Shown here: positions 4,199 through 64,000 of the stretch, piece after piece | Position numbering within the stretch: the first letter of the stretch is position 1 | How the letters are laid out: each line of letters begins with the position of its first letter | Source of the DNA: Blasia pusilla | Lineage: Eukaryota | NCBI GenBank assembly: GCA_050084515.1 | Contig: CM114271.1 | Span: forward strand, 30,070,001-30,134,000 | DNA: 64,000 bases | Reading direction: 5' to 3' | Notes under the pieces: generated by a model | What the model saw: the letters and a program-made list of their open reading frames with translations, nothing else | Told to the model about the DNA's origin: nothing | Databases searched by the model: none | Translations under genes and position numbers: made by a program

Positions 4199-4944
4199 AT
4201 GTCGAAGGAGACTAAAGTTAAGCTGAAGTCCTCCGACGATGAGATGTTTGAAGTGGACGAGGCGGTGGCCTATGAGTCGCAGACGGTGAAGAATATGATC
4301 GAGGACACAGGAACCGATAATCCGATTCCTTTGCCTAATGTTTCTAGCAAGATCTTGTCGAAGGTCATCGAGTACTGCAAGTACCACGTAGATACTCAAA
4401 AAAGTAGCGATGATAAGCCTGCCACTCCCGAGGACGAAATCAAGGCTTGGGACGCGGACTTCGTGAAAGTTGATCAGGCGACTCTCTTCGACCTGATTTT
4501 GGTGAGTCCAGAAACTTTCAATTATGAACGCATCTGGATAGAACCCTGACGTGGTTGCTCGACTAGTCCTCGGGGAGGCCTCCTTCTCGTCCGTCTCCTC
4601 ATATCTGAGACGTCTATCCTGGGAGGGTTCCATGCCCGCTAGTGGTGAATAGAAATTGTGTCGGTTTTCTTCCATGGGAACCCTCTGCCTTCTCCCTGAT
4701 TTCACTGCGTTTTGTAATTTCGTTCTGCGTCTTGACATGGTAGCGTCTTCTCGGTTGGTTGTGTTTGTAGGCCGCGAATTACCTGAACATCAAAAACCTT
4801 CTGGATTTGACCTGCCAAACCGTTGCCGACATGATCAAGGGTAAAACTCCCGAGGAGATTCGAAAGACATTCAACATAAAGAATGATTTCACACCAGAGG
4901 AAGAGGAAGAAGTCAGGCGGGAAAACCAGTGGGCTTTTGAGTAA
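4199..4944 (+). CDS. SKP1: SKP1/ASK1-like SCF E3 ligase adaptor, copy A (158 aa)
   Basis: Exons 4199-4501 and 4771-4944 with a GT-AG intron at 4502-4770. Protein [19 protein letters not shown]...[21 protein letters not shown]...[63 protein letters not shown]. An in-frame upstream ATG at 4190 could add MAG. Confidence 0.97.
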
Positions 4945-15102: not shown

Positions 15103-15240
15103 CTATACACATCTCAGACACATCGATGGTCCCGTGGGAACTACATCAAGAGGGGCGGGGGGGGGGGAGGGTGGGGTGGGGTGGGGTTCAGACATGACAT
15201 ATGCCATCCTAAAAAACAACCATCACATCACAACATACAC
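15103..15240 (-). pseudogene. PHD finger at the C-terminus of the retroelement integrase
   Basis: Reads RCML*/CDGCFLGWHMSCLNP..PLDVVPTGPSMCLRCV*, matching the PHD pattern CxxC...CDxCxxxWHxxCLxPPLxxVPxGxWxCxxC. It has an internal deletion and a G-rich expansion at 15152-15186. Confidence 0.8.
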
Positions 15241-15299
15241 CTCAAGCCTGCAGGTACCACTGCCAAGCTCGGATCCAATGTCGCGTCTATGTTTGGAAG

Positions 15300-17990
15300 A
15301 TGACATGGCGCACAACTGCGCACATGATCCTTCCAAACCATACCATCATGTCCCTCCAACATGAGGACTCCGGTCGATAATATCTCGCCCATACGTAGGA
15401 TCGTGCGCCCTGCAGTGATATCTAGCGTCGTGGGTGCCGCCTGCTGTAAATACACGTAATCTCCGTGATGAAACCTCATAATCCTTGGACAATAACCTAC
15501 TCCATGAATGGTCATATACCTCAATGTATCTCTATGCTGAGCAATAGCTAAGTTCTCAAAGGCCATAGGCATAACTCTACAAAAAATCTCCACCCTCTGA
15601 GAACACGCTTGTATCCACACATCTGGATCATTAAGTCTAACATCTCCGCCATGTCACGTCAAATAGCTACAGGTAAATCTGGCTCTCTCCCAAAGAGCAA
15701 AAAGTACGGTGAAAATGACGCCAAGGATGCCTGCGGATTACAACGATAACCCGTAGCCAACCATGGCAATTGTAGGTTCCACTCCCTCAACTGTCCCCGC
15801 TGCAAGCCATACTTGCGCAATCCTCTCTTTCACCGTATGTACTACTCTCTCTGCCAACCCATCCACCTCAGGATGATCTCTGGACGTGGCGCGGTGATCT
15901 ATCAGCGCCTGATCACACAAGGCTAAAACTCGCCCCTGAACTCGGTACCCTAGTCAATCAACACCTCCGCCGGTGCACCAAAGTGAATCAGCACACAATC
16001 TAGAAACGCATAAGCTGTTCCCTCGCTCGCCTTGTCCGGTAGTGCCACCAACTCTATCCACTTGGAGAAATGCTCCACCATGACCAATACGTACCTATGA
16101 TGACGCCCCGTCAATGGCAAAGGTCCCGCAAAGTCTAAACTCCACTGATAATCTTAGCCCATAATCGGCAAAGGATGTAACTGCAGAGTGGGAGCATTGA
16201 AGGATGCTACACTCTGTCACATATCATACATCCAACCACAAACTGCTGTATCCCAGTATGCATGCCGCGCCACCAATACTGAACCTGGAGTAAGCTGTCA
16301 GTACGCTTTACTTCAAAATGCCCCAACTCCTCATGGGCATGTCGCACTATACGTGCTTGCTAGGAAGGATGAGGTACCACTCGTATCCTACCATCTCCCC
16401 ATACTTGCAGAATGTGAGTCCCCTCCCACATGAACCTCCAGGCTCTCTGTAGGATCCGATCTAGCTCCCTAGCACTCACTGTGCTCGCTATGAGGCTAGT
16501 GCGCAAGAACTCCACAACCTCCACGTCGTCATGGATATCACGATCACTTGTCGCCTCCTCAATGACCTTCGGATCCAAAGACTCATCATCCAACCCCACC
16601 ATTGGAGTCATCACCTGTGGCTGACCTACTATAGTCAACCAACAAAGACAGGCAGATGCATGCCAACCGGGCACCATCTCCTCATCACTCTCTCCGTGCC
16701 ATCGAGCTCTTATGTCATCTCTCTGACTCGGACATGGGTTATGACTCAACCCATCCGCATCTTGGTTTAGCCGACCTGGCCTATGAACCACCTCAAACTC
16801 ATACTCTTGTAGTAATAGAGCCCACTTGGAAAGCTTTCATGTAAGCTTGTCGGACTCCATCAACCACCTCAACGGTTGATGATGAGTGATAAGTGTGAAA
16901 GGGTTGCCGAATAAATAGTACCTGAAATGTGCCACAGCCCACACTGCACCCAAGCACTCTCCCTCGTAGGAGCTGTACTTTGCCTCTCCAATGTTGTTCG
17001 ATTGGCTCGCGTAAGCCACAACGAACCTCCTCTCCTCGTCATCCCTCTGAGTAAGCATTGCTCCTAGACCCAACATGCTACAATCCGTATGTAATTGGAA
17101 TGGACGACCCCTAACCGGTCTCTGTAAAATGGGTGAGGACGTCAACCTATCCTTGAGCTCTTGAAATGCTCGCTCGTGATCACCTCCCCACAACCAAACC
17201 TGATCAAGTCCCGTCAACAAGGTCAAAGACTTTGCGATCGCACTAAAACCCTTGACACACCGTAGATAGAAGTTTGCCAATCCAAGAAACGCTTGGTCTC
17301 GACTCACATCTGTAGGGCATGGAATCTTCATAATAGCCTCCACCTTTGTCTACTGAACATCTAACCCACTCGGATATACGGTGTATCCCAAGTACTCAAT
17401 CTGCTCTTGAAAGAATCTGCACTTGCCTGGATGTAACTTCAGTCCGTGTAACTGCAATCGCCGAAACACCTCCTCCAGGTGTCGCTCATGCTCCTCAACC
17501 GTGGAACTGAAGATAAGAATATCATCTATGTAACATTGTACAAAATCCAAGCCATCCAAAATCCTATCCATCACTCTCTAAAACTCCAAAGGCGCGTTCT
17601 TCAACCCAAATGGCAAGAACCGCCACTAATACAAGCAATCTCTCCCGAAACGATCTATCCCCCATAATTTTGTCTTCTCCCTGTCCTCCAATCTGATAGG
17701 AAGCTGATGATAGCCAACATGGAGATCTAAAGTACTGGAGATCTTTGCATGCCCTAACGCATCAAAGATCTCCTCGGGACTAGGCATGGCGTACTGATCT
17801 GACCTCCTCTGTCGGTTTAGAGGACGATAATCTCCACACATCCGCCTATCCATCCAATTGCCATACATATCCTTCTTCGTCGGTGACTATGGCGGATACA
17901 TACTCCCCATGTGATAACTCCACAAGTCCTGCCTCCAATAAGTCCTGACTCATGCTCTGAATCAAGGCTCGCTCCATATCAGAATACCTG
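15300..17990 (-). pseudogene. Gypsy pol remnants: reverse transcriptase, RNase H and integrase
   Basis: RRMCGDYRPLN, STLDLHVGYHQ, VQCYIDDILIFS, LHPGKCRFFQEQIEYLG; FQLHTDCSMLGLGAMLTQ, YSSYEGECLGAVWAV; DFAGPLP, VMVEHFSKWIELVAL, DHPEVDGLAERVV. The RT-RH-INT order indicates Ty3/gypsy. Confidence 0.95.
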
Positions 17991-18889
17991 TAGGATCGAT
18001 GAAAGATTGACGTATCACTAGCCAACTCAATCCGTATCCCGGAACCCTTCAGCGTACCCAAATCTCTCATACTGAAGGCAAAACAACTCATATGCCCTCT
18101 CAAAAACCTATGAACTTGTTGTCGCTCTCCTCTTATCAACTTGAGACATATCACAGGCTCCCAAGTCTCCATCGTGACCTCACTCGGAGAGGACGCAACC
18201 TCTGGCTTTGGTTGCTATGTAGCAACTCTAGCCACTCCGCAACAGCCACTCCACTCTGGCCTCCTATCTCATGCTCCACATCCAAAAATGAACATGTGCT
18301 GCTCTGGCCGCCTTCGCACTCTCCGCTCGAACGACGTCCCATGAAGTCCATGGGTGCCTATCTCTCTTCGTCCCGCCCCCAGCCAATGCCTCTACAGACC
18401 CTCTAGGCAATGGTCCAACTGGTGGATGTGACGGCATGGATGACACTCGCATCTGTCTCGGCTCAGCCATACCTAAGGTCGTCGGAAGATAGGAAAACCA
18501 TTATCCAACTCAATTCGAATATGTGGACCCTTCAATGTACCCAAGTTGTGCATACTATATGCAAAATAATCCCTGAATCTCCACAAGAACTACAACATCT
18601 GTCTTGTCAACCTAGGACCAATCATCGACTCCCACGTCTCTGGAGCAGCAACATGCGCTCCCAAATCATACACCAACTCTCTAGACACTCTACTATGTCT
18701 TGCATCAGCAAAATGAACTCTCATCTCTCTGTGCTCTCGTGACATGTCCCATGAAGTCCATGGATGCCTTTCCATCACCATCGCGCCCCCAGCCAGTGTC
18801 TCACCCATCTCGATAGACGTTGCACTCCAAAGTGGACGTTATGTTACACACGCCTCTTGCATCCATCTCTGCCCAGCCAAACCAAGACT

Positions 18890-19380
18890 GCACACCCAAG
18901 TAAGACAGTTCAGTCCATGGCATGACCCGATACCTATCTACGGGATGCCTCTTCCATCATAGGCATGTCCGTCGTACCTGTAGAGAACCCCATAGCTCAC
19001 TCTCGCTCGTCGATGTTGGGGTCCACCAATGTACTTGCATGCTCATCCCATATCATGATTTTCTCCAAGGAGGAAGAATGACCCTGCCATGGCCACCCTG
19101 CCACCACCAAGTGTATCGGACCAACTATATCAAGATCTGGCGCCCCCAACAACGAAATGTCGGCCGAAAATACATGCTGATATCCCCTAACTGCAAAAAG
19201 TGGCAATAATTGAGGATATTGTTGGACTAGTCTCGACACATGATGTAATGAGACCCTACGTGCAGTCTCATCTCTCTCAACATACAAGTGTTGTTGTACT
19301 CGTTCGTATTCCGGCCTGCAACATTGTTGCCAACGATGTACTAATCCCTCCAAAGAGATCTAGTATACGTACATCCTCCT
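18890..19380 (-). pseudogene. DNMT3-like C5 cytosine methyltransferase domain inside gypsy pol (copy 1; motifs V-VIII deleted)
   Basis: Motif I VRILDLFGGISTSL, motif II YVERDETAR, motif III DISLL, motif IV GPIHLVVAGWPWQGHS (catalytic C to W), then motifs IX-X ERE*AMGFSTGTTDMPMMEEASRR*VSG. Collinear with DNMT3 (IRVLSLFDGIATG...GPFDLVIGGSPCNDLS...EMERVFGFPVHYTD...RQRLLG). Confidence 0.85.
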
Positions 19381-20359
19381 TGGGATAGTGCCACACAATC
19401 GGTGTGGTGTCCAAGGGTGTCAATATATCCACTCCTAGAGCACGTGGTGACTCTATCCTATCTCGCTCTAGAGCATAGGCTCAGCTCCACGCCTGCCTCA
19501 CGAGCTTGTCTATCGTTGGTGTAGTTGGCAACTCCGCCACTCTAGCCGCTGCTGCATGCCAAATCTCTGTGGCTCTTGTCCCAATCACATGCTCCAAGGG
19601 TACCTCTGCCACATCTCATGTGCGTCTATGAGAATGAGTTTGGTTCTTCTAGTCTCAACACTAGAAGAACCAAACTCATTGCTCTCTCAAAGCGTCATCG
19701 CCAACCAAAAAACATCAGCTTGTCGACCTCCACATGTCAACAAATCTCTCGCCGTGAATAGTGGGACGCTACATAAAGCCATCGCCATCTCTCGTAACTA
19801 GGCTGTGTCGAATGTTGCATAGGCCTGGTAGACGTACTCGCCTCACCCGCTCCTCTAACTGCATCGGCATCTGCAACAACAATGCTCCTCAAAGGCCATC
19901 TAGGGACCATCAATGGGGTCCGAAGAGCCTCTGAAAATGTAAAAGACTGGGGAAGTCTAGCCTGCCTGCCAGCTTCTCCCCTCTAGGGATCCAACTCCAC
20001 ATTGGATCCTCGTTGCTCAGAAGCTCTCACCGCGCCTCTCCTAACCATTGCATTTGCATCCACCTGTGTAGTGTTGCACAAAAATCCCATACCTCTTAGA
20101 TCTCCCGCTGTATGCAGGGCCTTAGAAGATCCAGAAGTCGACGCGCCCCCTGCACTTGATGTAGATGCATGCTGGGTCGTCATAGCCTGAAGGCGTTGCT
20201 CCAACTGAGCAATCCTTGCCAAAGCTGCCTTTGATGCAAGTGTTGCACTTGCTCTGGCAGGTGGTGGGGTCTTGCCTCCACCACGTCCTCGAACTCCTAC
20301 ACCTCGTCATCTGCCACCTCTAGGTCCTTCACCTCCCTGTGAGCGCAGCTCGGGGTGGA

Positions 20360-21420
20360 GCTCGAAACATCTCTCATGTGTGTGCCCATATCTCTGGCAA
20401 TGATCACACTAAGGTAAGGGTGGCCTCCCCTGGGCTGCCTCATATACAGTTGATGGTGCTCCCTACATTCCACTTTGTTGTCTATAATCTTGCTAACGAT
20501 ATGATCCTCCACACGTCCAACAAGAAATACTTGAGCCCTGTTGCCCAACGTATGACTGAACTCGTCATGGTCCAAGCTCCCAATATCCTCCCTTGGTCCT
20601 ATGACTCTATCTCAAGTAGTGTGTTGCGGAAGTGATGGAGATGCTGTCACTCGTGTTGTCTCCCTCGAAGATGATGCGCCTGTCGTCAAAACTATCTCCT
20701 CAAGTATGTTGAGCTCAATCCGCTCTTACAACAAAAATACACATTTGAGAGTAGGGAAACCAACATGTAAGAGACTTGCATCTCCCACTCTCTTCCGCAA
20801 CTTGCGGTGTAGCATCGCATACCAGAATTGGACCGCTTGCGCCTCCATCGCATCCTAAGTCGCTATAATCAACTGTCGGAGCTGTGCAAAGGCCTCTCGA
20901 AGACTCTCTCGCTCTTTTCCGAGACTCATGAATCAACTTCAGCTTGTCGGTCCTCACCCCCTGAAAGTTCCTCCCCGACTCTCGAAAGAACTCAATCAAC
21001 GGGTTGAACGCGACTGATCACACTCGTAAGACTTGGGTCGACAACTCCTCCAAGTGTCTCCTCCGTGTGGTTAGTGGGTGCTACTGTAGCCACCACATCA
21101 TAAAACGCACGCCCTCTAAGGGACACATATCCTAGAGACCAAAATAGTCTCTACGCCTCGATCTCCGTCTCATGGAGAATCCAAAACTTGTGATAATCAT
21201 CCATGGGAGGGCCCTCCAGATGTTGAAAAAGTCCCTTCCATGCCATAAAGGGGTTGGAAATCTGTTGGTTTTGCATCCTATGTGCATCGCACCAACTATC
21301 GAACTCCTCCATAAAATCATCCAACTTGATGGTTTCCACCATGCTTGAGAACCGTCGGGGTCCCCTCGTGGATCCATAAATATGGCGATCATCCATGTCC
21401 CACAACAACGGTGTGGCAAC
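20360..21420 (-). pseudogene. Gypsy gag remnant with CCHC zinc knuckle
   Basis: IKLDDFMEEFDSWCD...AWKGLFQHLEGPPMDDY, and CDHCQRYGHTHERC (CX2CX4HX4C) at about 20408-20367. Confidence 0.75.
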
Positions 21421-22130
21421 ATTGCAACACTCCGTGGCCTCTAGGGTAACTGAGAATCCGCTAACGTTACCTCTGGAGTAACTACAACTCGCGACTGAGG
21501 TGGTTCCTCGTGTGGAAACCCTTGATACCTAGCCCCATTGCGTGTAAATCCTCCTCCATTTCTACCACTACCACGCTCCCCAATACTCTGTGGATGCGCC
21601 GTGGTGAAACTTGCAAACTACTATGACTCACTTTCGAGCCACTAGCTCTGCACTAGACAATGCCCAAACTGTGGACATGCCCCCACTTATCTCACTTGAG
21701 GTCAACACGCGGCAAATAGACTGCACACTAAGTCACTCCCGACTAGTGTGATATACATCCATCCCACCAAGTTCTCTACAATAGTCGCGGTAGTGCCGTG
21801 ACTCACCAACGTACTAATCCACAATGTATGTCACCTGAGAATCACCCCTCAAACATCTCCCAAAGTGAGTAAATTCCTCTGTGTGCAACAACTAGCCATC
21901 ACTTCCTTGTGGGTGTGTTGGTAACAAAACATGCAAAAGAACTCTCCAGTTAAGCACACTCTGGAGGAATTGAAGTGGGATGGGTGATCTGGAAGTTATG
22001 TTGAATTGGATCAGCAACGGATTGCCAAGTCCTCACGCCCACCAGCAAGCTGGGGCCTTCAACGCCTCTCACACCCACTCGCACCTTCGACACCTTTGCT
22101 GCCTCAAAGAAAAGGGCGACAGATTGAACC

Positions 22131-23430
22131 CAATTGGAAACTGGGTTCCGATTGCTGCGCCGCTTTGCCAACTCGCACGGAACTTGGACGTCACAAAAGT
22201 TCCTTCACCTATAAGAGTGTCAAATCAGAACTTCAATTCTGAATGCTCTTGGCTCACCCCTTCCTTCCTCACTTCACAGAAGAATGACAGAATTGGAATT
22301 GAAGTTCCAATTGCTCACTCCTCCCTCTCTGCTTCACACGCCGCGTCAAGCCGCACCTGATAGAAAGAGTCGCGCCCACTTGAACAAGCCGTGGAATAGG
22401 AACCAAAATTTTGATTCTTCTCCTTTCTTTCGTTGGCTTGAAGAAGAGCTGCGCCTTGCTTGAGAATCCATGGAATGGGAACTAAATTTTGGATTCTTCT
22501 CTCCTTCCTCTGAACGCCATGCTGAAATAGAGAGTATTGCTAACCTCACTTCTTGGGTCTGTGCCAAAGGGATCAGAACTTCAGTTCGATTGCCCTCACT
22601 ATCCTCTCCACCTCCATGTAGAGAGAACCCAACACAAGTGAGGAGCAGAATGGGAACTAGAGTTCCAATTGCCTCCTTCCTATCCTCTCCACCTTTATGT
22701 AGAGAAGACCCACAAGTGAGGAGCATAATGGGAATTGAAGTTCCAATTGCCTCCTCACTTCACTTCCCTACGCCGCTGCACTATGCCACACCGTAGTAGT
22801 CAACTGTAGTTGAAACGCTCAATTGTTCTCCAATTGAGACAGAATAGGAACTTGAGTTTCAAATCCTCCTTGCTTCCTTGTCACTCCCACTGCGCCAATC
22901 TCTGCTATGCCGTCAAGATGACCACCATGCACTTGAACCCCGCCTCGGCTCAACTGTGCTCAAAATGGAACTTGAGTTCCAAATCCCTTTTGCAGCTCCT
23001 TGTCACCCTTGCCGTGCCGTGCGGTGCCGCGCCTTTCATATGACTCGGCCCTTGCTGCTGGATCAGAATTTTAGTTTCGATTCCCACTTCGCCACTCTGC
23101 TCCGAACTGCCTCTTGGGAGGATTCTCTTGAATCAGAACTTAAGTTCTCATGCCTCCCTCAACTCCACCAACTTTGTGGATAGAAGTCCTAGTTATGCTC
23201 TAGTAACTACTCCAAACTAGTGGCGCTAGCTCCTCCACACTACTGGCACCCCAAACCTTTCCAACCTCTAATAGAGGAAAAGTTGACCACGTAACCTCTT
23301 CCTTGGTTGAACCACATTCACCAACAAGGGATATCGAAACTTCAGTTCCGATTGAATGAAGAGCTCTCCTCCTCCTCACTCCTTCTCACTTTCCAAACAA
23401 GGGCTATCAGCACTTAAGTTCTGATGCCTT
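22131..23430. repeat. Array of about 14 imperfect 22-bp palindromes (consensus AATnRGAACTTNAGTTCYnATT) separated by mostly unique spacers
   Basis: Motif cores at about 22136, 22227, 22295, 22399, 22478, 22575, 22653, 22731, 22847, 22967, 23065, 23135, 23336 and 23409, plus a partial at 21966. Period is about 70-120 bp. One spacer is tandemly duplicated (~22590-22750). Confidence 0.8.
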
Positions 23431-47280: not shown

Positions 47281-48155
47281 GAGTACGGTCTCTCGCACAA
47301 ACACATCAAGCACTAATTGGCCAAGAGATATAGCTAGACTGATTTAATATCCTCTTAAAGCAATCACCAATTTTCAATGTAAATAGACCTTCCACATCTC
47401 TTATTTTTCCAATTTGAATTGAAATCCAGTAGTTGTTAGATGAGAGGGTTGATATGATTCGTACCACATTAGTTCCCTGTAACAGAGATATTAACTCAAA
47501 TGAAGGATATTGCTGAGTGTCAGGTGTTAACTCGGAAGAAGGAATATTAGAGTTAACATCTGACATTCAGTAGATCTGACCTTCACTCTGAGACCCATCT
47601 TGCACAGGATATACATACCGTCCTATCACAGGGAGAAAGTGCAGACGTAAACAAACATCTCATAGGAGTGAGCCTCACGTGAAGAAAATGGCAGTTAAAA
47701 CTGCTACAAATGCTGCAACCTTTAAATATCTAGAAAAGTATACATACAAAATGAACTTTGACCAATGAAGAGAGTCCGACAATGTTTGATCTAGCTACCG
47801 CAACAAATCATAAGAGGAAGGACGGAGCACTACAGGACTGCTTAGACCAAGTAACGTAGGAAGCACCTACAGGTAGCTATCAGAGGTCCTTGGCGGATCT
47901 CCTCACTGATTGTGTAAGGGCATACATGCAAGCATCTGGGGACAGAGCCAACGACCATTCCACCACTCTTGAATCGCACAAGATAAGAACATCCTCAACA
48001 GATATCACGGAGGCAGAGCATTTGGCCTCTGACATCAAGTTGCTCTTGAAAATTAGGAACGTAACTCGGCGGTAAAGCACTGCAAGAGGGACTATGCAGC
48101 GTTATCAAGAAGCAGAAACTCAAAATTTTACGGACTAGACAGATAAGAGGAGGGA

Positions 48156-48900
48156 TCACTCAAAAGCCCACTGGTTTTCCCGCCTGACTTCTTCCTCCTC
48201 TTCTGGTGTGAAATCATTCTTTATGTTGAATGTCTTTCGAATCTCCTCTGGAGTTTTGCCCTTGATCATGTCCGCGACGGTTTGGCAAGTCAAATCCAAA
48301 AGGTTTTTAATGTTCAGATAATTCGCGGCCTGCAAAACAAAATCGAAATGAAATGCCATCGCCGTGTCAAGACGCGGGACGAAATTACAAAAAGGCAGCG
48401 GAATCAAGTAAAACTAGTTTTATGCGCGGATTAAGACAAGAGATTCAAACAACGGCTACAACTGACGGAGCATATGTCCAAGATGTGAGGAAAACAATGA
48501 CTCGTAGGAGAGAACAGGCAAGAAAACACCAGATATACAAACAAATACGCTCATGTCATCTATATATACTCATAATTGAATGTTACAGGACTCTTACCAA
48601 AATCAGGTCGAAGAGGGTAGCCTGATCAACCTTCACGAAGTCTACATCCCAGGCCTTGATTTCGTCCTCTGGAACGGCAGGCTTATCATCACTGCTCTTT
48701 TGAGCATCCACGTGGTACTTGCAGTACTCAATGACCTTCGACAAGATCTTGCTTGAAACATTAGGCAACGGGATCGGATTATCGGTCCCAGTGTCTTCGA
48801 TCATATTCTTCACCGTCTGCGACTCATAAGCCACCGCCTCATCTACTTCAAACATCTCATCGTCAGAGGACTTCAGCTTCACTTTGGTTTCCTTCGACAT
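48156..48900 (-). CDS. SKP1: SKP1/ASK1-like SCF adaptor, copy B (158 aa)
   Basis: Exons 48900-48598 and 48329-48156, with a GT-AG intron at the same position as in copy A. It differs from copy A at 3 residues (T/A, T/V, A/V). Confidence 0.97.
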
Positions 48901-51675
48901 AGTGGCCGCTCCAAACACGCACAACCTCGCAGAATCGGGTTGCCTGTCCTTCGGTGAATGTACCCCTCCAAATGAGTCGACAGTTCCTTCTTCCCCTCTC
49001 CCCCCAGCGCTCTGACCGAGCCGGAATAACGACGTGTTTGAAACAAGAGCACAAGAGGCAAACGAGAACACTTACTATTAGAAAACAAGTACATACATAT
49101 CACCTTGCCTAGGTCAGGTTAAAACTCATCACGGAGAGCCGAAACAACGACGAGCACAAAAGGACATCACAACACAACCACTCACTCTAACTTCTCTTCG
49201 GCTCAGACCTGGATTGCAATAACCACAACCACGACAAACTAGGCAACTGGAACAAAAGACAGACTGGCTGACTGCACGTTCCACACAGGAAAACGAACGA
49301 TAGCGGACAAATGAAATTGACGTACCTTTCCGCCACTGCTCGCTGGACGGAACGATAGTATGCTACCGTGCAGACCCAATTAATGAAGCACCTCACAAGG
49401 CTAGATGGAGAGCGGCCTCCAAGGCGAAGAACAGACTTCTAGATCGGAACAGGAATGATCGGACCGAATGAACCAGACCGGCGAGGCGCTGGGAGACGGA
49501 CGGAGAGAAGAACGTCGGGTGGTCACAGGAGCCACATTGGAGAAGCCACAACTCCTCTTCCGCCCTGTAGGGTTCGAATATGATCACTGTACTACCGAGC
49601 GTTGCGATGTATACGGTAGGTTTCCTCGCGTCCCCGAATCCCCACGACTTGGCTTACCGTGGTGTTCCGCGCTTAACGCAGTTTGGGGAAAATTCTTTCA
49701 AATATTGACCAGTTTTTATGAGTTAGTCTTCCAGAGACATTTACGCGGTTCTCAAGATACAGAGCTTCAGAGTCTCAAGTGCTGGCCAGGTCGAGAGGCA
49801 GAACTTGGTTATGGTCGCCACTGAGATACTCCAGTGTGTTGAATGCGCTAACACTGGAGACTAGCCCAAGGTGGTCTTCTCCACTTCATAATTCGAGAAA
49901 AAGTGTATTTCCTTTCTCGTGCGAGTAAAATTCACATAAGGCACGCATATCACACCCCATCACTTCTCCGTCGGGAATTTGACGGAAAAGAACGTGCCGC
50001 ATTGGACCATATAAATACTTTCCCATTACGAAATATCAAATTTATATTATTAAGTATATACACAAATAAAATATGAATGAATAAAGATTTTATTTTTCAC
50101 AAATTATCTTTGCAGTCTAATTTTTCATTTTCTACATAACCATATATTATCTTCTATATATACACGTGATAATTTAAATTAAGAACTAGTGTGGCAACCC
50201 CAAAAGTGGGGTGGGGTATTATTTAAAAAATAATAATACAAAAAGCGAGTGTACACAAAGAGACCCATAATAAAAAATTATAAAAAAATGTATTATAAAG
50301 ATATTAATATCTAATTTCGTTTTAGTATATAAAAATTTTTAAAAATATATACTATAAAAATATTAACATTAAATTTAATGCATAGTAGTCTTCAATACAA
50401 ACCACAAAGAAGAATAGGAAAGATATCATAATTCAAAACCCAATACAAATGGAGAGATTATGTTTGCAATACAAAAACAATACAAACCGAGAGACATTAC
50501 ATTATATAGGAGAAGAATACAATAATCTATATGCTACAGAGTTGAATATATTATACTAATCTGATGTGAACCAAATGTAATGTTGATTGTTAGGTTATCT
50601 TTTTTAACATAGTGATATGTATATCTTACTATGACATATTTAGCATTTAGCATTTACATCAAATCTTACTACGACATACAAAGGATCCTACAAGACAAAG
50701 GTAATCAATACAAACCTTTTTAATGACAAGCAAAACCAAACGGAAGTTCTAATGAACACTATGGCTTGAATGTATGATAGACCACTGATGAAGTGAGTAA
50801 TAAACATGGCCAAAAAAGACTTCAATAAGAACCCGTGCACCATGTACATAACATGACATTACCTGAATTCTATTAATCCACGTTCCTTTAGGGATTCATT
50901 GGATCACTCTGGTGTCTCTACACAAAATATGTAGTTTTGCACGCACCTCCTGGAAAACCGCAATTTAAGGCCTTTAAGTTGGGGCCGTAATGAGTAATGA
51001 AACTTATCCCAACACGAATTATATAATTTACCCTTGAAATTCTTGATTGACCTCTTAAATCAATTTTGAATAATCTTACTGGTAGGGGGATTCTATTGGT
51101 TAATTGGGTCCTGTGTTAAATTGAGAGGTGTTCGAAAATCATAGTGGCACGCTCCATAATTAATACAAATTGTCGAATGCACAAATATCTTACTATTTTG
51201 AGATAAACGTGTACATATGATAAAGAGTTCACTTAGTTTGACAAAGGTTTCAATATGAGTGGATCACAATTTGTCCCATTGGTAAGATGTCTTGTGATGC
51301 ACCTTTCTTAATGTATGTTTAAAAAAACAATGAAAAGGAAATGAAAAAAATTGGTTAGAAAGAAAGAAAATCAATCTCTAAAAGATTAAGAAACATTCAA
51401 AAAGGAGATCATAAAAGAATTAAAAATACATTGTAAGTTATTGAACCATCACTTTGTACACATTCTTGACTTTGTTAATATTTTTTGTTTCCTATATTTA
51501 TTTTTAAATGGAATTTCCCTATCCTAATAATAATAAAATTTTACATTTTCAAAGTTTAAGGGAATTAAAAATCCATGAAATATTATTTTGTATGACTCCA
51601 TTTTTACATATGATCCCTTAAAGTTTTTCAATAAAGATAAAAAATTGATGAATTTTTAAATTAAAAAAAAACTAA

Positions 51676-52475: not shown

Positions 52476-55376
52476 TAGGGGCTCTTAAGAACTATATTTG
52501 TTTGAGGGGGACCTTGTTTTTCCAATATTATTGATTTGGGATTTTTGTGTAAAAAACACAAGATAATGAAATCCAAAGGGAAACATACTTGTTAAAGCCC
52601 TAGTGCATCTACAATAGTTGTAGCCTTTGGCCCCTCAGTGTGAAAGGTACAAGTGAGGTAGTGGAATAACCCAAGAAGGTTTCAAGCCTAGGAGACTGAA
52701 TGTGGCACATTTTAGATGGTGTGACAAGAAAGTGACCAATTCATTTGGTTAGTGGGTAAACAATAACAACGAGGGATACATGCATGATTATGTCCCCTAC
52801 AGGTTCTCACTGTTTTATTTCCTTGGCCATCCAGAGTATCCACGTGTCCACTACAAATGTCCTCTGCACATATGTATCAATCAATTACTCGCCGCATACT
52901 CGTTCCATAGATGAAGGAAAGCTACCGTATAACTGACCGTCCATGCACTCGCATGAAAAGTGTCATCACGGGCTGCTACAACAGATCGTGAATAGCAAAC
53001 GGAGACGGCCAAGAGCTGGCAGAGTCCCGCAGCAGCCTGCACGAAGGATCCTGCGGATGAAGGAGGCTTTCAGATTGTGCGAACTTGGTAGCGGAGGACA
53101 TACATGGCATGCGCGTGCGGTAGGGAGCGGCAGGAGTCGTTGAATGTGAGCATCAGAATACCGAAGCAGACATAGACACTGACAGATAGGGTCATCCACC
53201 AAACTGAACTGTACTGTGCTCTAGTAGAAGAAGGACATAGATAAGGGTCATGCAGTAAAGAGTACTGTAGAGTGAGTGGTAGAAGAATTATAACAGGACA
53301 GAAAGACGTGGGGGTTGAGTTCAGGCTTGGAGAATAAAACGAAGTGGGTGAGAGACGGCGGGCGGAGTGTGGCAGACGAGAGAACCCTGAGTGTGGTGGG
53401 GCCGCGGTACGCGTGCAGAGTGGGCCCTAGTGAGATGGGGTGGCAGCTCAGTGGCTTCCCCAGCGCCTGCTGCTGCAAATAGTAACAGTGCTATCTAGAA
53501 AGGACATCTGATTCTTTTCGTTTTGTTACTCCAGTTCAGTCGGCCTGCGGAGTGGAATGTAACGACCTACGGGCGCCAAGAACCGGAATTCTTTGTAATG
53601 TCAGCAGGTAAAAATTAAGAATTTCCGATCTGACCAGCAAAGTCTCGGCCAAAAACCGAACCGGGAAATGCAGTTTCTTTGTAAAAATTGAACAAAACCG
53701 GCTGTTATTTAGAAATATCCGGTCAGACCCTCTGGAGTGTCGGGGAAAAACCGGGGAGCTCGAAAAATCAATGCGCCCGCTGGTGACGACGATAACGACG
53801 ACTGCAGGCCCGTCATCCTGATCTTGCTGCGCTTCTATTTGGTTAACCCGAGCCGACCGATGACAGCAAGTGAAGAGGGACGAAAAGAAAGGCGGTCCGA
53901 TGGAAATGGTGATCAGGTTCTTGCCTGTTCATGCGTCGTCCTGGGGTAATGAGTCGGTCTGTACTGGCGGAGGAAGTGACATCCTCATGCGCAAGATCCA
54001 CTTGAAGTAGAGCTAGTAGCTGTGCATGGGAGAGTGATTCTGAGATAGTTGTGGTGGAGTGGGGAGAAGATCGCCGAGGAAATTTGAGGGAAGCGCGGAT
54101 TTGATGTTGGGAAGGAGGACATTTAGACGGAATTGTTTACTTGAAAGGTTCAATGTGTGCGATTGAGAAATCTAGCTTGAGAGTCGACAGGGCGGCAGTC
54201 AGCGAGTGACGGGTGGTTTCGCCATGTGGGGTTGGCGGGATGCTCTGATGGTGCTGTTCTTCTTCTCGTCCTTTGACCAGGCCCTTTTGCGGACAATTGC
54301 AGCACCCCGGAACTGTCCACGATGGCACACCACTTGAGCAAGCAAGCTCTACTGAGGGCAGTCCACGCCGATGCCCTCTCTGTGAGCGTTGACAATTGCC
54401 GAGGACGAGGGGAGGTTTTTGAGACTGTGTATATCCCTCATGTAGATACCTTAAACAGGGCATGGCGGGCCACCTCTGCTGCTGGAGTTCTGGTATGTGG
54501 TTTTCACTGTATGCCCGTTCTGTCTTCTCCCATCACGATCGTACGCCCAATGCCCAACTTAACGTAGGTCCTGTCCCTTCGTTACACCGTCAGGATTCTC
54601 CTGCAGGTGTGCACCTCCGTCATCTAGTGCTTGCGCTCTTGGAGCCGCCAGTCTGCCTGATTCCTCCGTGGGTTTTCACGACCTGTCATGCCGTCTGTGA
54701 GCTACTTGACCAGAAGCCCCTGGACTGTTCGACTTGCTAGTCGAGCGAAGCTAGAACACAGGGGCATTCCATTAGGAGAATTATCTGCTTTCTACAAGCT
54801 CGTGTGAACTTTCTTGTGAACAAGTTGTTACCAGCTTCCAATAGTTCTGTAGTACCTTTCCGAGCTGTCTCACATACCGTACGAGAAATACTGCACATGC
54901 AATCTCTGGCGTCCGAGCTGCATATCTCCGCGTGCGCTGCATCTGGGGTTTGTACGACTGGGGACAACGAATGACGGTCCCTTGCGAGAGGGAAGAAATG
55001 AATTTGTTATCGTAGTACTGTTGTATCATACCTGAACTTCCGATTTGTAGCTGGAGCTTGAACTGAAGAGCTTCAGAACTTCAGATTCGGGAGCAGGATT
55101 GGACGTCCATGTTTGACACCTGTTTCATAACCCTTGGTTTGTTTTTATGAGGGACAGTTTGGCCAGATTCAGCCGACACCAAAGACTCTTTGAAGGATTG
55201 CTGATCATGAATTGCGCAACCGTTCGATGTTCAGGTTGTCATGGGCTGTTTCTTTCGTAGAACCATGCCTTCCATGGGTTAAGTTTTGGGGATTACTTTG
55301 TAATCAGTTGAAAGCGCTCACAATATTAGTTGCTGCAAGAGGCTTGAGCTGACGATGGTGGGTGGGTGTGATTACT

Positions 55377-57552
55377 ATGGCAGAAGTCTCGCTACCGGAA
55401 AAGAAAGATGTGAACTCGTCATTATCTCCTCGAACCCCGAAAATTTACTCTTTGGATGAGCTCCGAAGAGCTACGAAGAATTTTGCCGTCGCTAATGTCA
55501 TCGGCAAGGGATTATTCGGAACTGTCTATAAGGGAAAATTACGGAATGAACGAGGACTTCCGTTCCTTGTAGCTATAAAACGATATGGTCCAGATTTTAC
55601 GAAGGAGTTTCACGCGGAATTGAGTGCTTTGTCAAGGCTGAACCATCGAAACATTGTTCGTTGCCTTGGGTCTTGCGTACAAAAGGACGAGAAATTACTG
55701 GTTTTGGAGCATGCACATCATGGTAGCCTTCATGACTACCTTCAATGTGAGTACATGTACTACCACTGGTCATACGCGCACAACCTAGGGCCTGAGAAAT
55801 CCGTCGTATATGAAATCAGCAACTGTTAGTTACGTGGAAAGATAAATTGTATTCACGGTGGGTTGGTTTGGCTCTCTTATAGTGGTGGTGGGACTTGATG
55901 AATAGGTGCATCTGACGTTCGAAGTGTGAAGGTATGAAGGTCTTGTCCTCGGGCTCTTTTGGAATGGGAGATCTATTTAGCATTTGAACTGGAATGGTTT
56001 CGTGGTGGCAGGTCGCAAGCCTTTATTGACTTGGGCGGAGAAGTTGACCATCGCATTGGGTATTGCTGAGGGCCTCAAGTATTTACGAGTGGTGAACATT
56101 ATTCACAGGGATCCTAGCTCTTCCAATATTCTGCTGGACAAGGGTCTCGTACCCAAAATAGCGGACTTTTCCTTAGTACTGAAGGCTTTCGGAGTCAAGG
56201 AAGAGGAGGTGGTACACATCCCTTGGGTCGGCACCAAGGGCTACACGGATCCTGAATATATATTACAAGGCAACGTATCGACAGCTGTGGATGTCTTCAT
56301 ATTTGGTGTAGTTCTCATGGAGCTAATTACTGGAAGACCACCAGTTGATCCTGCAAACGACTGTCTTCTAGTAACCGAAGTAGGTAGTTCTAAGTCCTAT
56401 GACTCACTGTGCTCTGATTTGGTACTCTTCTTCATCTGCTCCACAACAGAGGAATCCAGGCCTTGCAGTGTTTGTGGTGGTCACATACTGAATGATCATT
56501 GATTCTGGGTATTCTTCACTTACTGTTCGAACACAGGAGAGGAAGATGTAAGATGGATGTGGGATAAGTTGCCCAATAGTTGAAGATAGGTAGAACTTAT
56601 ACACCTTCAGTGACAATTGGTATATTGTAGCAAGACAGTATTCTCCAAGTAACACTTACAGGAGGAGCTTTTAGGGATTGAGAATGGATGGTCACATACT
56701 TAGTTGGGCATGTGAAAGCATACCCAGAACCCAGAGCTGTGTCAATATCACTAAACCAGACTGCCTCATTAAGATGATACAAGTTAAGTCATGCTGATCT
56801 TCTTAGGGCAGATTTCAAGTGCTTTCCGGTGACTTCTTTGGCTGTCCTCCTGTCTCCCACATCCAGTTGAGATCAGCAATTGTCATTATGGTTGGATACG
56901 TGTAAGCCCTAGTCAGGGTCTATAGCAGAGATATGAAGCCATCTATTTTGTGTGCGGATGCTCCTTTGGTTATAGAGATGTTATGAAGAAGATACTGTGT
57001 CATTGACCTCTGTAGGGACAACCCTGGCTCCTGGGAACTTTGGTTTAGAAGGTAGCACAAGTGTTGGTACATGATAACCTGAGAGGTATTCGAATTTTAT
57101 TTCTATGTTTTATGACTTTCAGAAACGCATTTTTTGACAGATGCACCAGAAGCAGGCAAATGGAAGCAACCTTTTTGATCTCGACCACCTCAGTGGGGTT
57201 CGGTCCCCTCTGTTTACGGCCTCCATAAAGGTCAGAGTGCACATGCCATCTAAGCGCATTCTGTCCTAGATTAAAATAGTCATGGATTTGATCACTGAAT
57301 TGTAATTAGGTGGGGGTTGTGAAAATGGTTGATGTTTAAAATTTCAACAAGAATTTGATTTTGGTACTGTCATTCTTCTAATGGAATGAAGATTTTGTGG
57401 TCCAAAATTTGTGATTGTAGATTGCTTGTGAGTTGGCCTTGAGTTGTACCACTTGTGAAGCAAAACAACGGCCAAAATTAAGTGAAGTGCTATCTACCTT
57501 AGAAGAAGCATTAAGACTCCAGGCCAAAGATTTAGAAGGTCAGTGTCTTTGA
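55377..57552 (+). CDS. Receptor-like cytoplasmic (RLK/Pelle family) protein kinase, about 319 aa, atypical catalytic loop
   Basis: Exons 55377-55746, 56012-56379, 57141-57230 and 57421-57552 (phase-consistent GT-AG). Motifs YSLDELRRATKNF, GKGLFGTVYKG, VAIK, HRNIVRCLG, HRDPSSSNILL, KIADFS, GTKGYTDPEY, DVFIFGVVLMELITG and ALSCT..EAKQRP. Exon 3 and the last exon are less certain; an alternative terminal exon near 57999-58042 is possible. Confidence 0.85.
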
Positions 57553-61700: not shown

Positions 61701-62639
61701 CATTGGGTGTAGTTAAAATGCACTTATTGGACACCTAAAACAATAGGCTTGTGAATACTCAATCTGCACAAGCATAGAGAAAAATCAGTTTTGGTATTGG
61801 TAAAGGGAAACTACTCGGAGAGCAAAAATTCACTCAATGCAACAAGCATAAAAATATATAGGTTTCCAACTAAACAAACTCAAGGGCAACACATCACAGA
61901 GCGACGCGTTGCCTCTTGGACGTTCCCATCGGGAATCGAGTTGCAAAAGGCAACCCATCGCAATGCGATAGGTCGCTGTTGGAAACTGACATGACCCTAA
62001 ACTCATGAAATTGTATCCAAAGGAAATGAAAACTTACTTTCTCTTCAGATTTGGCACTCCGCACCAAAATCTCATTGGAGACAACCGAGATTTTTGCAAT
62101 CTCCCACCTTTGAAAACGTAGAGGACTATGGAACCCCGGCCTGCCGCCCATCAATCCCCTCCTCTGGATCTATCTCCACCCCACCTCTCAATGGCTCGGT
62201 CCTCGCAGCACCCTGAGTCACCACTGCAACAACCTCTATGGGAGCCATATCCATTACACACATCATCGATGGTGCCCACAGATGGGGCAGGTGTGTGAAT
62301 GTCACGAGGAGTTGGAGGGGCAACTCTTATGCCGACTTGTAGGGAGTAAGTGTTGACCACGGTTTTGGAGATGGCCACCGCGGTGAGCCAGACTCCTTTA
62401 TTTTTCGCAATGGAGTTGGCGAGAGTGGGAGTTAGACCAGCAGAGGTGTTGGCCGCCATGCTGTGTGAGCGTGAAGAGGTGATTATGGGAAGAGACACCC
62501 GTCATGGCATGGCTCTCAGTGGGACTATCCTCTACCAAAATTTCCTTCGCATGTGTGTTCTCCTCCAACAACTCTCCTGGCCAACCACCACCATCTGTGA
62601 AAGTTGTCAACGTGGTCGATCACCTCGTCCTCCAAACTA

Positions 62640-63010
62640 TACAGGAAATTGACTCATCCGTCCATCGCCTGATCGCCACCCTAGCTGATAAGCAACGGTC
62701 TCCTCCCAAAAGTCAAGGATGAATCTTAAGGGATATAACACAGTACTTCCAACCAACACATCGTTCGACTCACATGGTGTCATGATCACACCCGTGCACA
62801 CCATTGCACTTTCCATCGCATGCTCACGTTGGACTTTGACAACTATCTCCTTTTGAGTCATATGTTGCGTGGATGATACGCATCCAAAAGAAGTCTATAT
62901 TTGGAAGGGACAAGGCTCAATGTTGCCTTTCCATAACCCCAACGCCAAACATGCCACCTTCCCCAACATTAGGGGTTGCGCTCCTTAATCAAGTAGGACG
63001 CGCTGGAGGT
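62640..63010 (-). pseudogene. Retroviral-type aspartic protease remnant
   Basis: RVLLD*GAQPLMLG at 62990-62982 (DSG motif with Ser replaced by a stop), then ESNDVLVGSTVLYPLRFILDF (xDVLLG-like motif). Confidence 0.75.
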
Positions 63011-63289
63011 GGTACACCCTTCCTATCGGACTAACTAAACGAAACACTCCATCTCAGTTATCTACAACACTACACCTGGTGTCACCATGGCTCGCTCTAT
63101 CATTGCCCTAGCTGACATCTCTACCAACTTCACCACCACAACATGCCATGACTCAGTTGAGGACGTCTCGAGCACCTACACCGAGGGTACGTCCGCCTTT
63201 ATCTCTAAGTAGAGAGAGTCAAGTGACGATAGAGCTTCTAGAACGGAGACGTTGACACCATTGGATACTACACCTGTAGTGTGGCAATG

Positions 63290-64000
63290 TCCAAAGGAGG
63301 ATGTGAGTCTGAGTGTTAGATCTCTTTGGAGGGATCAACACATTATTAGCACTAGTGCTGTTACAGCCAGACATACGAGTGCATTAGTACATTTAAGTGG
63401 AGAGAGATGAGATTGCATGATGGGTCTCATTGTGCCATGTGGTGAGATTGGTTCAGAGACATCTTAATCTATTGTTGGTATCTGCAATACGAGGTTACCT
63501 ACATTTCGTTGTTGGGGGCGCAAGACCAAGATAGAGTTGGCACCATTCGTTTGGTGATTGCTAGATGGCCATGTCAAGGTTATTTATTACCTGGCCGAGG
63601 ATTTGGATTACAGGATCCAAGGTCAATGATGTTTTGGGAGATGTTGCGAGTATTACGACACTTGCAGGAGAATCAAACATGTCCTCCAATGTACATTCTG
63701 GAGAACGTGCCACTCATGGGAGACACTCGTGCACGGGTGATGACAAGTATGCATCAGGTGAGATTGTGGTTGGGACTTGCCGTATTGCTTGATGTAGCAT
63801 GAGTTGGATTATGCGCACACCGTCCATGGTTGTGGTGGACAAACCTTCACCATCAAAGGTGCTAAGGCAAGCTTCTGATGGAGTTCAGAGAGCACCATAC
63901 TTGATAGTGGATGCAATCTTGGGTCCAAGGCATCGATCTCAAGTGGTGATGTGGGATGATAGAATACTATTGGCAATAGCCAATATGATGGGACAATTGA
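63290..64000 (+). pseudogene. DNMT3-like C5 cytosine methyltransferase domain (copy 2; motifs I-VIII visible)
   Basis: VLDLFGGINT (I), VERDEIA (II), LVIARWPCQG (IV, PCQ at 63569-63577), GLQDPRSMMFWEMLRVL, YILENV (VI, 63701-63709) and AHRPWLWWTN (VIII, cf. DNMT3 AHRARYFWGN). Stops and frameshifts are present. Confidence 0.9.

What the first reader, a model, noticed from the sequence alone, without database searches (positions are those of the whole stretch)
63240..64000. Second diverged copy retains the catalytic PCQ, ENV and motif VIII, so the DNMT is a family trait
This copy shares the same pre-DNMT linker as copy 1 (LTPLDTTP.VW..PKEDV) but is clearly diverged. It supplies the motifs missing in copy 1 (PCQ catalytic Cys, ENV, AHRP.LWWTN). 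Together the copies cover motifs I-X. Two separate insertions within 50 kb suggest a multi-copy family whose ancestor had a catalytically competent enzyme (inference).
Basis: partly seen in the sequence, partly recalled or inferred. Interest (0 to 1): 0.82.

Follow-up and report, generated by a model that had tools for sequence, protein, structure and literature searches.

The report
Dead methyltransferase-carrying Gypsy retrotransposon copy
The window's end holds a broken relic of a jumping gene that carries its own DNA cytosine methyltransferase, a kind of element described in a green alga in 2018 and seen here in a land plant, with close relatives in liverworts and mosses.

Summary
At 63252-64000 (+) lies a Dnmt3-type C5 cytosine methyltransferase relic. 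It has the shared linker, motif I (DLFGGI), PCQ (63569-63577), ENV (63701-63709) and AHRPWLWWTN (63815-63844). It is a pseudogene, with 3 frameshifts and 4 in-frame stops.

Copy 1 (21569-15186, minus strand) reads gag-DNMT-RT-RNaseH-integrase. It lacks the protease, has PWQ instead of PCQ, and has lost about 160 residues of the DNMT.

The two copies differ with dN/dS 0.24 at dS about 1.0 (85 codons, p = 6e-7). The DNMT was therefore under selection while their lineages diverged.

Relatives with the order gag-protease-DNMT-RT-RNaseH-integrase occur in Marchantia, Calypogeia, Sphagnum, Closterium and many metagenome contigs. Some of these contigs show the A-coding-B-A-B repeats reported for KnitGypsy-Dnmt3.

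The kind is already known (de Mendoza 2018), so this is a new member of a known kind and dead at this locus. My searches found no report of it in land plants. Interest is moderate.

The parts
62122..62484 (+). Copy 2: remnant of the gag C-terminal / pre-protease region. This is the 5' limit of what is recognisable in copy 2.
   Evidence: tblastn with P0290 residues 88-195, 34% identity, E 7.6e-5; with P0008 residues 515-558 at 62356-62481.
62485..63194 (-). Copy 2: segment holding the aspartic protease region, inverted relative to the DNMT in this assembly.
   Evidence: tblastn with P0008 residues 612-763 at 63068->62613, 55% identity, E 3.8e-43; with P0291 residues 612-650 at 63169->63065 and post-protease residues at 62583->62518. 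A 399-nt contig of run X2 joins revcomp(63326..63195), 91 other letters and 62485..62658, which is the collinear orientation.
63252..63305 (+). Copy 2: conserved pre-DNMT linker LTPLDTTPVVWQCPKEDV (frame 3).
   Evidence: The family consensus is LSPLDTTPIAWEYPSEG in alignment A1.
63313..63498 (+). Copy 2: DNMT motifs I-II (DLFGGI at 63319-63336, VERDE at 63397-63411), in frame 1, with three in-frame stops at 63385, 63394 and 63418.
   Evidence: tblastn with P0024, P0010 and P0026, 53-63% identity; coordinates.
63503..63847 (+). Copy 2: DNMT motifs IV-VIII, in frame 2. PCQ is at 63569-63577, ENV at 63701-63709, a TGA stop at 63800-63802 and AHRPWLWWTN at 63815-63844.
   Evidence: Pfam PF00145, E 3.7e-6; tblastn 63-71% identity over 115 residues; coordinates.
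63850..64000 (+). Copy 2: stretch after motif VIII, in frame 1, running off the end of the window.
   Evidence: tblastn with P0012 residues 501-550, 52% identity; with P0010 residues 318-366, 47%.
19830..21569 (-). Copy 1: gag region, in several frames with stops. The protease expected after it is missing.
   Evidence: tblastn with P0008 residues 4-505 at 21381->19830. Only about 320 nt lie between 19830 and 19510, where relatives have residues 505-833.
19075..19513 (-). Copy 1: linker (19423-19370), motif I DLFGGI (19360-19343), YVERDE (19284-19267) and WPWQG (19095-19081, the catalytic Cys replaced by Trp).
18874..19056 (-). Copy 1: DNMT motifs IX-X (DPNIDERE*AMGF, GHAMD), with two stops. 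It follows a deletion of about 160 residues that removed ENV and motif VIII.
   Evidence: tblastn jumps from P0026 residue 96 (at 19075) to residue 257 (at 19056); P0008 residues 978 -> 1139.
18327..18913 (-). Copy 1: spacer after the DNMT, with an internal duplication (18314-18392 against 18724-18802, 75%).
16405..18169 (-). Copy 1: reverse transcriptase and RNase H.
   Evidence: Pfam RVT_1 E 3.7e-17 (17353-17577); RT_RNaseH_2 E 4.3e-30 (16840-17349); tblastn with P0007 residues 696-1190.
15186..16267 (-). Copy 1: integrase.
   Evidence: Pfam rve E 3.3e-8 (15953-16153); tblastn with P0062 and P0041 integrase, 38-44% identity.

Best explanation
The stretch 62122-64000 is the decayed, 5'-truncated and rearranged front part of a Ty3/Gypsy-type retrotransposon. 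In this family the polyprotein carries a Dnmt3-like C5 cytosine methyltransferase between the protease and the reverse transcriptase. Copy 1 at 15.2-21.6 kb is a second, independently decayed member.

In live members the element would be translated as one gag-protease-DNMT-RT-RNaseH-integrase polyprotein, as in the 2188-aa relative P0062. The DNMT has the full, non-permuted motif set I-X, with the catalytic Cys in PCQ and the Glu in ENV. It would use S-adenosylmethionine to methylate cytosines. The most plausible substrate is the element's own newly made cDNA or its insertion site, as de Mendoza et al. 2018 proposed for retrotransposon Dnmt3s.

What is shown: the anatomy, the homology, the family-wide retention of the domain and purifying selection on it. 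What is inferred: the enzymatic activity and its target. At this locus nothing works. Both copies are pseudogenes.
For: Anatomy of copy 2: the protease segment, linker and DNMT motifs I, II, IV, VI and VIII appear in family order.

Anatomy of copy 1: gag, DNMT, RVT_1, RT_RNaseH and rve lie on one strand.

Relatives: 35 proteins at E <= 1e-3 to the copy 2 ORF, 17 of them named from liverworts or mosses. A profile search of 1.84 billion representatives gave 4038 hits at E <= 1e-3 and 262 at E <= 1e-30.

Domain order: Pfam gives zf-CCHC 530, Asp_protease_2 796-888, DNA_methylase 978-1226, RVT_1 1421-1575, RNaseH 1638-1766, Integrase_H2C2 1895 and rve 1967 for P0062. Closterium P0218 has the same order.

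Metagenome loci: in 24 of the 28 loci of at least 11 kb, RT-RNaseH follows the DNMT on the same strand.

Tree: both window copies fall inside a clade of 24 rows (support 100/99) that otherwise holds the Marchantia, Calypogeia and Sphagnum proteins and related environmental rows (the quick tree gave 25 rows and SH-aLRT 100).

Selection: copy 1 against copy 2 gives omega 0.24 with p = 5.8e-7. Among 71 metagenome copies, omega is about 0.9-1.0 at dS < 0.1 and 0.18 at dS > 0.8. For those deep pairs the DNMT value is lower than for protease (0.29), RT-RNaseH (0.45) or the spacer (0.56).

Dnmt3 affinity: the family profile's best solved relatives are DNMT3A (E 1.1e-8), DNMT3C and DNMT3B. These are 29 of the 31 hits. 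M.HaeIII comes only at 3e-4 and a DRM-type chain (4onj) at 4e-4. AHRARYFWGNL of DNMT3A aligns to AHRPRLWWTNL.

Repeats: loci L061 and L052 have A-coding-B-A-B split direct repeats. The legend of Fig. 4c in PMC5890265 describes this arrangement for KnitGypsy-Dnmt3.
Against: No terminal repeats of any kind were found around copy 1.

The 3' part of copy 2 lies beyond the window, so its RT and integrase were not seen.

The protease segment of copy 2 is on the opposite strand in this assembly.

No Klebsormidium sequence appeared in any search. The link to the published family therefore rests on architecture, repeat structure and Dnmt3 affinity, not on a direct alignment.

No tree was made with host DNMT1, DNMT3, DRM or CMT sequences.

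All 138 deep pairs (dS > 0.8) involve L063 or L067, which are near-identical. They amount to one independent contrast. dS above 1 is close to saturation for the Nei-Gojobori method.

For activity, the only published test of a Gypsy-borne Dnmt3 (the K. nitens domain expressed in yeast) gave no methylation. The authors called that result inconclusive.
Confidence: 0.9

Rival explanations
1. The stretch is a pseudogene or exon remnant of the host's own DNMT3 gene and does not belong to a mobile element.
For: The domain is Dnmt3-like. No RT is visible downstream within the window.
Against: The family-specific linker and the protease segment of the same retroelement family lie directly upstream. The DNA is collinear with intronless polyproteins of 1000-2200 residues that carry gag, protease, RT and integrase. 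Both copies sit inside the retroelement clade.
Confidence: 0.03
2. Copy 2 arose by local duplication of an already dead copy 1, or the reverse. In that case the shared DNMT says nothing about the family.
For: The two copies lie 44 kb apart in one window. An AU test does not reject them as sister rows (p-AU 0.31).
Against: They share only 66.9% nucleotide identity over the single 354-nt stretch that aligns. dS is 1.04 with omega 0.24 (p = 5.8e-7), whereas neutral divergence after a duplication would give omega near 1. Each copy has different deletions. Relatives in four named genera carry the same domain.
Confidence: 0.02
3. The element is real, but the DNMT in this land-plant lineage was acquired independently of the charophyte KnitGypsy-Dnmt3. 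The resemblance is convergent, as it is between Gypsy and DIRS carriers.
For: No K. nitens relative was retrieved. Among the 150 best representatives there are two domain orders: 17 with the DNMT before RT and 74 with it between RNase H and integrase. The remaining 59 are DNMT-only fragments. The position in K. nitens is not given in the text I read.
Against: The order protease-DNMT-RT also occurs in Closterium, a streptophyte alga. The unusual A-coding-B-A-B repeats are shared with the published description. DNMTs of both orders are mutually alignable at 35-48% identity well beyond the generic motifs.
Confidence: 0.2

Closest known systems
KnitGypsy-Dnmt3 of Klebsormidium nitens (de Mendoza et al. 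2018, PMC5890265; sections 6, 9, 10 and 11 read, plus passages)
   Same: Both are Gypsy-type elements with an rve integrase and an intronless, non-permuted Dnmt3-type domain inside the polyprotein. Both show purifying selection on the DNMT among copies: the paper reports Ka/Ks < 0.2, and here I find 0.18-0.24 on deep contrasts. Relatives L061 and L052 have the A-coding-B-A-B repeats that the paper describes.
   Different: The host here is a land plant, and the element's clade is otherwise found in liverworts and mosses. The window copies are dead. No repeats were found around copy 1. No direct alignment with K. nitens was possible. The position of the DNMT in the K. nitens polyprotein is unknown to me, because the figure is not held.
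Environmental and chlorophyte Gypsy elements with the order RT-RNaseH-DNMT-integrase-PHD (for example P0041, and Monoraphidium neglectum MNEG_11595 = P0247)
   Same: The DNMT domain is related (31-41% identity to P0062's), and they share the Gypsy RT, RNase H and integrase.
   Different: The DNMT sits between RNase H and integrase and a PHD finger follows the integrase. In the window's family it sits between protease and RT.
SymbioDIRS-Dnmt3 of Symbiodinium (same paper)
   Same: A Dnmt3-type domain lies inside a retroelement Pol, with split direct repeats.
   Different: It is a DIRS element with a tyrosine recombinase, and the host is a dinoflagellate. Its DNMT was shown to methylate CG in yeast. 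No such test exists for the family seen here.
EpiLTRs of Cymbomonas and Euglena (bioRxiv 10.64898/2026.05.21.726589; passages read)
   Same: LTR retrotransposons that carry a cytosine DNMT.
   Different: According to the preprint their DNMT is sister to DNMT4, is appended at the 3' end of pol, and is combined with an adenine methyltransferase and a chromodomain.
Host DNMT3A/3B/3C (solved structures)
   Same: They are the best solved relatives of the family profile (E 1.1e-8). They share the motif order, and AHRARYFWGNL matches AHRPRLWWTNL in motif VIII.
   Different: No PWWP or ADD domain was seen in Pfam scans of the relatives, which are flanked by protease and RT instead.

Membership tests
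Retrotransposon-borne Dnmt3 in Gypsy elements (Gypsy-DNMT3) | C5 cytosine methyltransferase domain with motifs in the normal order I, II, IV, VI, VIII, IX, X (not permuted as in DRM) | tested here: met
   Pfam PF00145 on 63446-63802. Motifs I, II, IV, VI and VIII are in order in copy 2; motifs I, II, IV (mutated), IX and X in copy 1. The full set is present in relatives.
Retrotransposon-borne Dnmt3 in Gypsy elements (Gypsy-DNMT3) | The domain is of the Dnmt3 class | tested here: inconclusive
   The nearest solved structures are DNMT3A, 3C and 3B (29 of 31 hits, best E 1.1e-8). No tree with host DNMT1, DNMT3, DNMT5, DRM or CMT sequences was made, so clade membership is not shown.
Retrotransposon-borne Dnmt3 in Gypsy elements (Gypsy-DNMT3) | The DNMT is embedded in a Gypsy polyprotein (RT, then RNase H, then rve integrase) | tested here: met
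   Met for copy 1. For copy 2 only the protease side is visible, because the RT side lies beyond 64000. Relatives: P0062 and P0218, and 24 of 28 long loci.
Retrotransposon-borne Dnmt3 in Gypsy elements (Gypsy-DNMT3) | Split direct repeats A-coding-B-A-B | tested here: not met
   Not found around copy 1, and copy 2 is cut by the window. Among the 11 long related loci examined, the pattern is complete in 2 (L061, L052), partial in 2 (L006, L051) and not seen in 7.
Retrotransposon-borne Dnmt3 in Gypsy elements (Gypsy-DNMT3) | Purifying selection on the DNMT among copies | tested here: met
   Copy 1 against copy 2: omega 0.24, p = 5.8e-7. Related loci: omega 0.18 on the deep contrast, which is effectively one lineage split.
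Retrotransposon-borne Dnmt3 in Gypsy elements (Gypsy-DNMT3) | Sequence relatedness to the type elements of K. nitens | not testable with these tools
   No Klebsormidium protein was returned or named. Supplements of PMC5890265 are closed.
Active C5 DNA methyltransferase | Uninterrupted reading frame with the catalytic Cys | tested here: not met
   Copy 2 has 3 frameshifts and 4 stops, although PCQ is kept. Copy 1 has PWQ, a deletion of about 160 residues and stops.
Plant DRM methyltransferases | Circularly permuted motif order (VI-X before I-V) | tested here: not met
   The motif order is the normal one.
Ty3/Gypsy LTR retrotransposon | Gag with a zinc knuckle, aspartic protease, and the order RT-RNaseH-integrase | tested here: met
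   The gag region, RT, RNase H and integrase are in copy 1. The protease is only in copy 2. zf-CCHC and Asp_protease_2 are present in P0062.

The most novel reading that the evidence does not exclude
The window's element belongs to an old lineage of Gypsy elements found across streptophytes, with the order gag-protease-Dnmt3-RT-RNaseH-integrase. The lineage runs from conjugating green algae (Closterium) into liverworts and mosses. It has kept its methyltransferase under selection throughout. It is abundant in bryophyte genomes, where it has not been described. Some gene models, such as Marchantia Mp_4g09160, still have an open gag-protease-DNMT frame. If so, the question of what a transposon-encoded de novo methyltransferase does could be tested in a genetically tractable land plant.
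Probability: 0.5. Interest if true: 0.65.

Novelty: new member of a known kind. Interest (0 to 1): 0.45.

Why it matters
Retrotransposons that carry their own cytosine methyltransferase run against the usual picture in which methylation is the host's weapon against transposons. In the papers I could read, they are documented for streptophytes only in Klebsormidium nitens.

The relatives found here show the same kind of element in Marchantia, Calypogeia, Sphagnum and Closterium. The domain sits between protease and RT and has been under purifying selection. A larger sister group of green-algal and environmental elements has the domain between RNase H and integrase.

The locus itself is a dead relic with no function. 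Its value is as a pointer to a family in land plants that is widespread and, as far as my six literature searches show, undescribed there.

Tried and rejected
- **Whole genome:** none is held for this window. I could not extend past 64000 or count copies genome-wide.
- **Pfam on raw six-frame translations:** I used ORF pieces instead. Seven of the 8 DNMT-region pieces were too short or too decayed to match.
- **Terminal repeats of copy 1:** none found by blastn or the repeat finder.
- **Klebsormidium homologues:** none was returned or named in three word-indexed searches, the profile search or two cluster look-ups.
- **Are the two window copies non-sister?** The AU test cannot reject sisterhood (p 0.31). 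I therefore do not claim two separate sublineages.
- **Expression:** no RNA holder was listed for 62000-64000.
- **Contig cover from runs X1-X4:** patchy, and no piece spans the stretch.
- **Earlier notes of this scan:** none for this genome or this sequence.
- **Literature:** six searches and passages of seven further papers gave no report of DNMT-bearing Gypsy elements in bryophytes or Zygnematophyceae. Supplementary tables and trees, for example those of PMC5890265 and PMC12344493, are closed and may list them.
- **Rejected readings:** a host DNMT3 pseudogene, a DRM, and a local duplication of a dead copy (see the rival explanations).

Full report
**What is at the coordinates**

The + strand from 63252 to the window's end encodes, in three alternating frames, the front two thirds of a C5 cytosine methyltransferase.
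- Linker LTPLDTTPVVWQCPKEDV at 63252-63305.
- Motif I, DLFGGI, at 63319-63336.
- VERDE at 63397-63411.
- WPCQG at 63566-63580.
- ENVP at 63701-63712.
- AHRPWLWWTN at 63815-63844.

The 118-residue ORF 63446-63802 matches Pfam DNA_methylase above the curated cut-off (E 3.7e-6, 27.1 against 22 bits). It also finds 35 database proteins, the best at E 2.3e-38 and 69-73% identity.

The gene is nonetheless dead. There are three frame changes and four in-frame stops, one of them between ENV and motif VIII.

**Copy 1 and the element**

On the minus strand, 21569-15186 reads gag, DNMT, spacer, RT, RNase H and integrase. Pfam finds RVT_1, RT_RNaseH_2 and rve, and tblastn with relatives maps the rest. Copy 1 is also dead.
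- The protease is deleted.
- The catalytic Cys is replaced by Trp (WPWQG, 19095-19081).
- About 160 residues that held ENV and motif VIII are gone.
- Stops and frameshifts are scattered through it.
- Motifs IX and X survive at 19056-18913.

Upstream of copy 2's DNMT lies the family's protease, but on the opposite strand (63101->62628). A pre-protease remnant lies on the + strand at 62122-62484. Flipping 62485-63194 would restore perfect collinearity. A 399-nt contig of run X2 (coded organism A, another sample, depth about 3, one mismatch per piece) joins the two sides in exactly that collinear orientation, with 91 further letters between them. That length is about what the protein alignment says is missing. 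The inversion is thus either a polymorphism or an assembly error.

**Is the DNMT a family trait?**

Yes. Four lines of evidence agree.

First, the two window copies share only 66.9% identity over the single 354-nt stretch that aligns. Over 85 comparable codons dN is 0.245 and dS is 1.04, so omega is 0.24. Synonymous differences are 34.5 of 61.3 sites and non-synonymous 40.5 of 193.7 sites (Fisher p = 5.8e-7). Most of their divergence therefore accumulated while the domain was under purifying selection, not after death.

Second, named relatives carry the same linker and domain. These are Marchantia polymorpha (13 of the 35 rows), Calypogeia fissa (3), Sphagnum and Closterium. In alignment A1 (17 rows), P, Q, N and V of PCQ and ENV are invariant, and C and E are present in at least 90% of rows.

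Third, a scan of metagenome contigs found 108 stretches encoding relatives, of which 80 were kept. In 24 of the 28 loci of at least 11 kb, RT-RNaseH follows the DNMT. These copies are mostly dead as well. Only 3 of 71 have no stop in the DNMT, and only 1 of 35 loci of at least 8 kb has an ORF of 400 residues.
- Among them omega is 0.9-1.0 for close pairs (dS < 0.1), 0.55-0.67 at dS 0.1-0.4, and 0.18 at dS > 0.8.
- All 138 deep pairs involve L063 or L067, so this is one independent contrast.
- For those deep pairs the DNMT is at least as constrained as protease (0.29), RT-RNaseH (0.45) and the spacer (0.56).

Fourth, both window copies nest in a clade of 24 rows (support 100/99) with the liverwort, moss and related environmental sequences. 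They lie outside the Marchantia, Calypogeia and Sphagnum subclades. An AU test does not reject the two as sisters (p 0.31), so I do not claim that they represent two sublineages.

**What kind of element is it?**

Pfam on the 2188-residue relative P0062 gives zf-CCHC, aspartic protease, DNA_methylase, RVT_1, RNase H, Integrase_H2C2 and rve in that order. Closterium P0218 has the same order.

The profile search of 1.84 billion representatives gave 4038 hits at E <= 1e-3 and 262 at E <= 1e-30. I classified the best 150 by BLAST with domain pieces.
- 17 have the DNMT before RT, which is the window's order.
- 74 have it between RNase H and integrase. Many of these carry a PHD finger after the integrase (P0041). 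One is from the chlorophyte Monoraphidium neglectum.
- 59 are DNMT-only fragments.

The family profile's nearest solved structures are DNMT3A, DNMT3C and DNMT3B (29 of 31 hits, best E 1.1e-8). Bacterial M.HaeIII and a DRM chain follow only at about 3-4e-4. The motif order is not permuted, so the domain is not a DRM.

Two related loci, L061 and L052, have complete split direct repeats A-coding-B-A-B, and two more are partial, out of 11 examined. De Mendoza et al. 2018 report that unusual arrangement for KnitGypsy-Dnmt3 of Klebsormidium nitens, a Gypsy element with a Dnmt3 in its Pol and Ka/Ks < 0.2 (PMC5890265, sections 6, 9, 10 and 11 read).

**How it most likely works**

In live members the polyprotein would be cut by its protease and so release a Dnmt3-like enzyme next to the RT. 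The published proposal is that such enzymes methylate the new cDNA or the insertion site. This is inference.

Only DIRS-borne Dnmt3s have been shown to methylate CG in yeast. The K. nitens Gypsy domain gave no signal, which the authors called inconclusive. In this window neither copy can make an enzyme.

**Comparison and novelty**

The kind has been known since 2018, and a 2026 preprint refers to 'streptophytes (Gypsy-DNMT3)'. Six full-text searches and passages of seven further papers gave no description of such elements in bryophytes or Zygnematophyceae (23, 25, 26, 27, 28, 66, 67). Closed supplements may hold them.

I could not align to K. nitens copies, because none was returned. I therefore file this as a new member of a known kind. 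There is an open possibility (about 0.2) that the land-plant lineage acquired its DNMT independently.

The host is a land plant judging by an SKP1-like ORF and a receptor-kinase-like ORF. I read these by eye and did not test them.

**Verdict**

The locus is a dead relic. Interest is moderate, because it points to a widespread family of methyltransferase-bearing Gypsy elements in land plants that is apparently undescribed there.

Noticed in passing
window 62485-63194: This 710-nt segment, which holds the protease of copy 2, is inverted relative to the flanking gag remnant and the DNMT. A contig of run X2 and a second contig of run X3 break at 63195. The X2 contig joins the two sides in the collinear orientation with 91 extra letters. 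This is either a polymorphic inversion or an assembly error.
   Followed up: partly
window 13994-14882: A large inverted repeat with arms 13994-14382 and 14494-14882 (389 nt, 88% complementary, 111 nt between them). It lies about 300 nt beyond the end of copy 1's integrase. It could be a foldback element or a rearranged element terminus.
   Followed up: no
window 18314-18392 and 18724-18802; 22275-22755: There is an internal duplication in the spacer after copy 1's DNMT (79 nt, 75%). There are also tandem units of about 78 nt upstream of copy 1's gag.
   Followed up: no
loci L001-L080 (DNMT region): The related metagenome copies carry many stops but few frameshifts: 301 stops in 70 copies, and 31 of the 70 align as a single tblastn match (no frameshift detected). 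Of 206 single-step stops, 190 are C>T or G>A changes, led by CGA>TGA (78) and CAG>TAG (63). This is the pattern expected from deamination of methylated CG and CHG sites.
   Followed up: partly
window 62000-64000, runs X1-X4: Short contigs 90-95% alike pile up on the protease and DNMT core, with summed word depth up to about 2000. Near-identical contigs have a depth of about 3. This hints at many related copies in the coded organism, but the tool warns that this figure is not a copy number.
   Followed up: partly
window 25308-25577 (+): An isolated weak protease-like match (32-48% identity to the family's protease, E 1e-6 to 5e-4), with no RT or DNMT nearby. It is probably a fragment of another Gypsy element.
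   Followed up: no
window 47680-49538 and 3565-5414: An inverted duplication (73-81% identity) that includes an ORF at 48583-49071 (minus strand). By eye this ORF looks like an SKP1 protein. It was not tested with a tool.
   Followed up: no
window 55353-56502 (+): Two ORFs that by eye look like exons of a plant receptor-like protein kinase. They were not tested with a tool.
   Followed up: no
proteins P0041, P0055, P0247 and others: A large group of Gypsy polyproteins has a related DNMT between RNase H and integrase, with a PHD finger after the integrase. Most are environmental and one is from Monoraphidium neglectum.
   Followed up: partly
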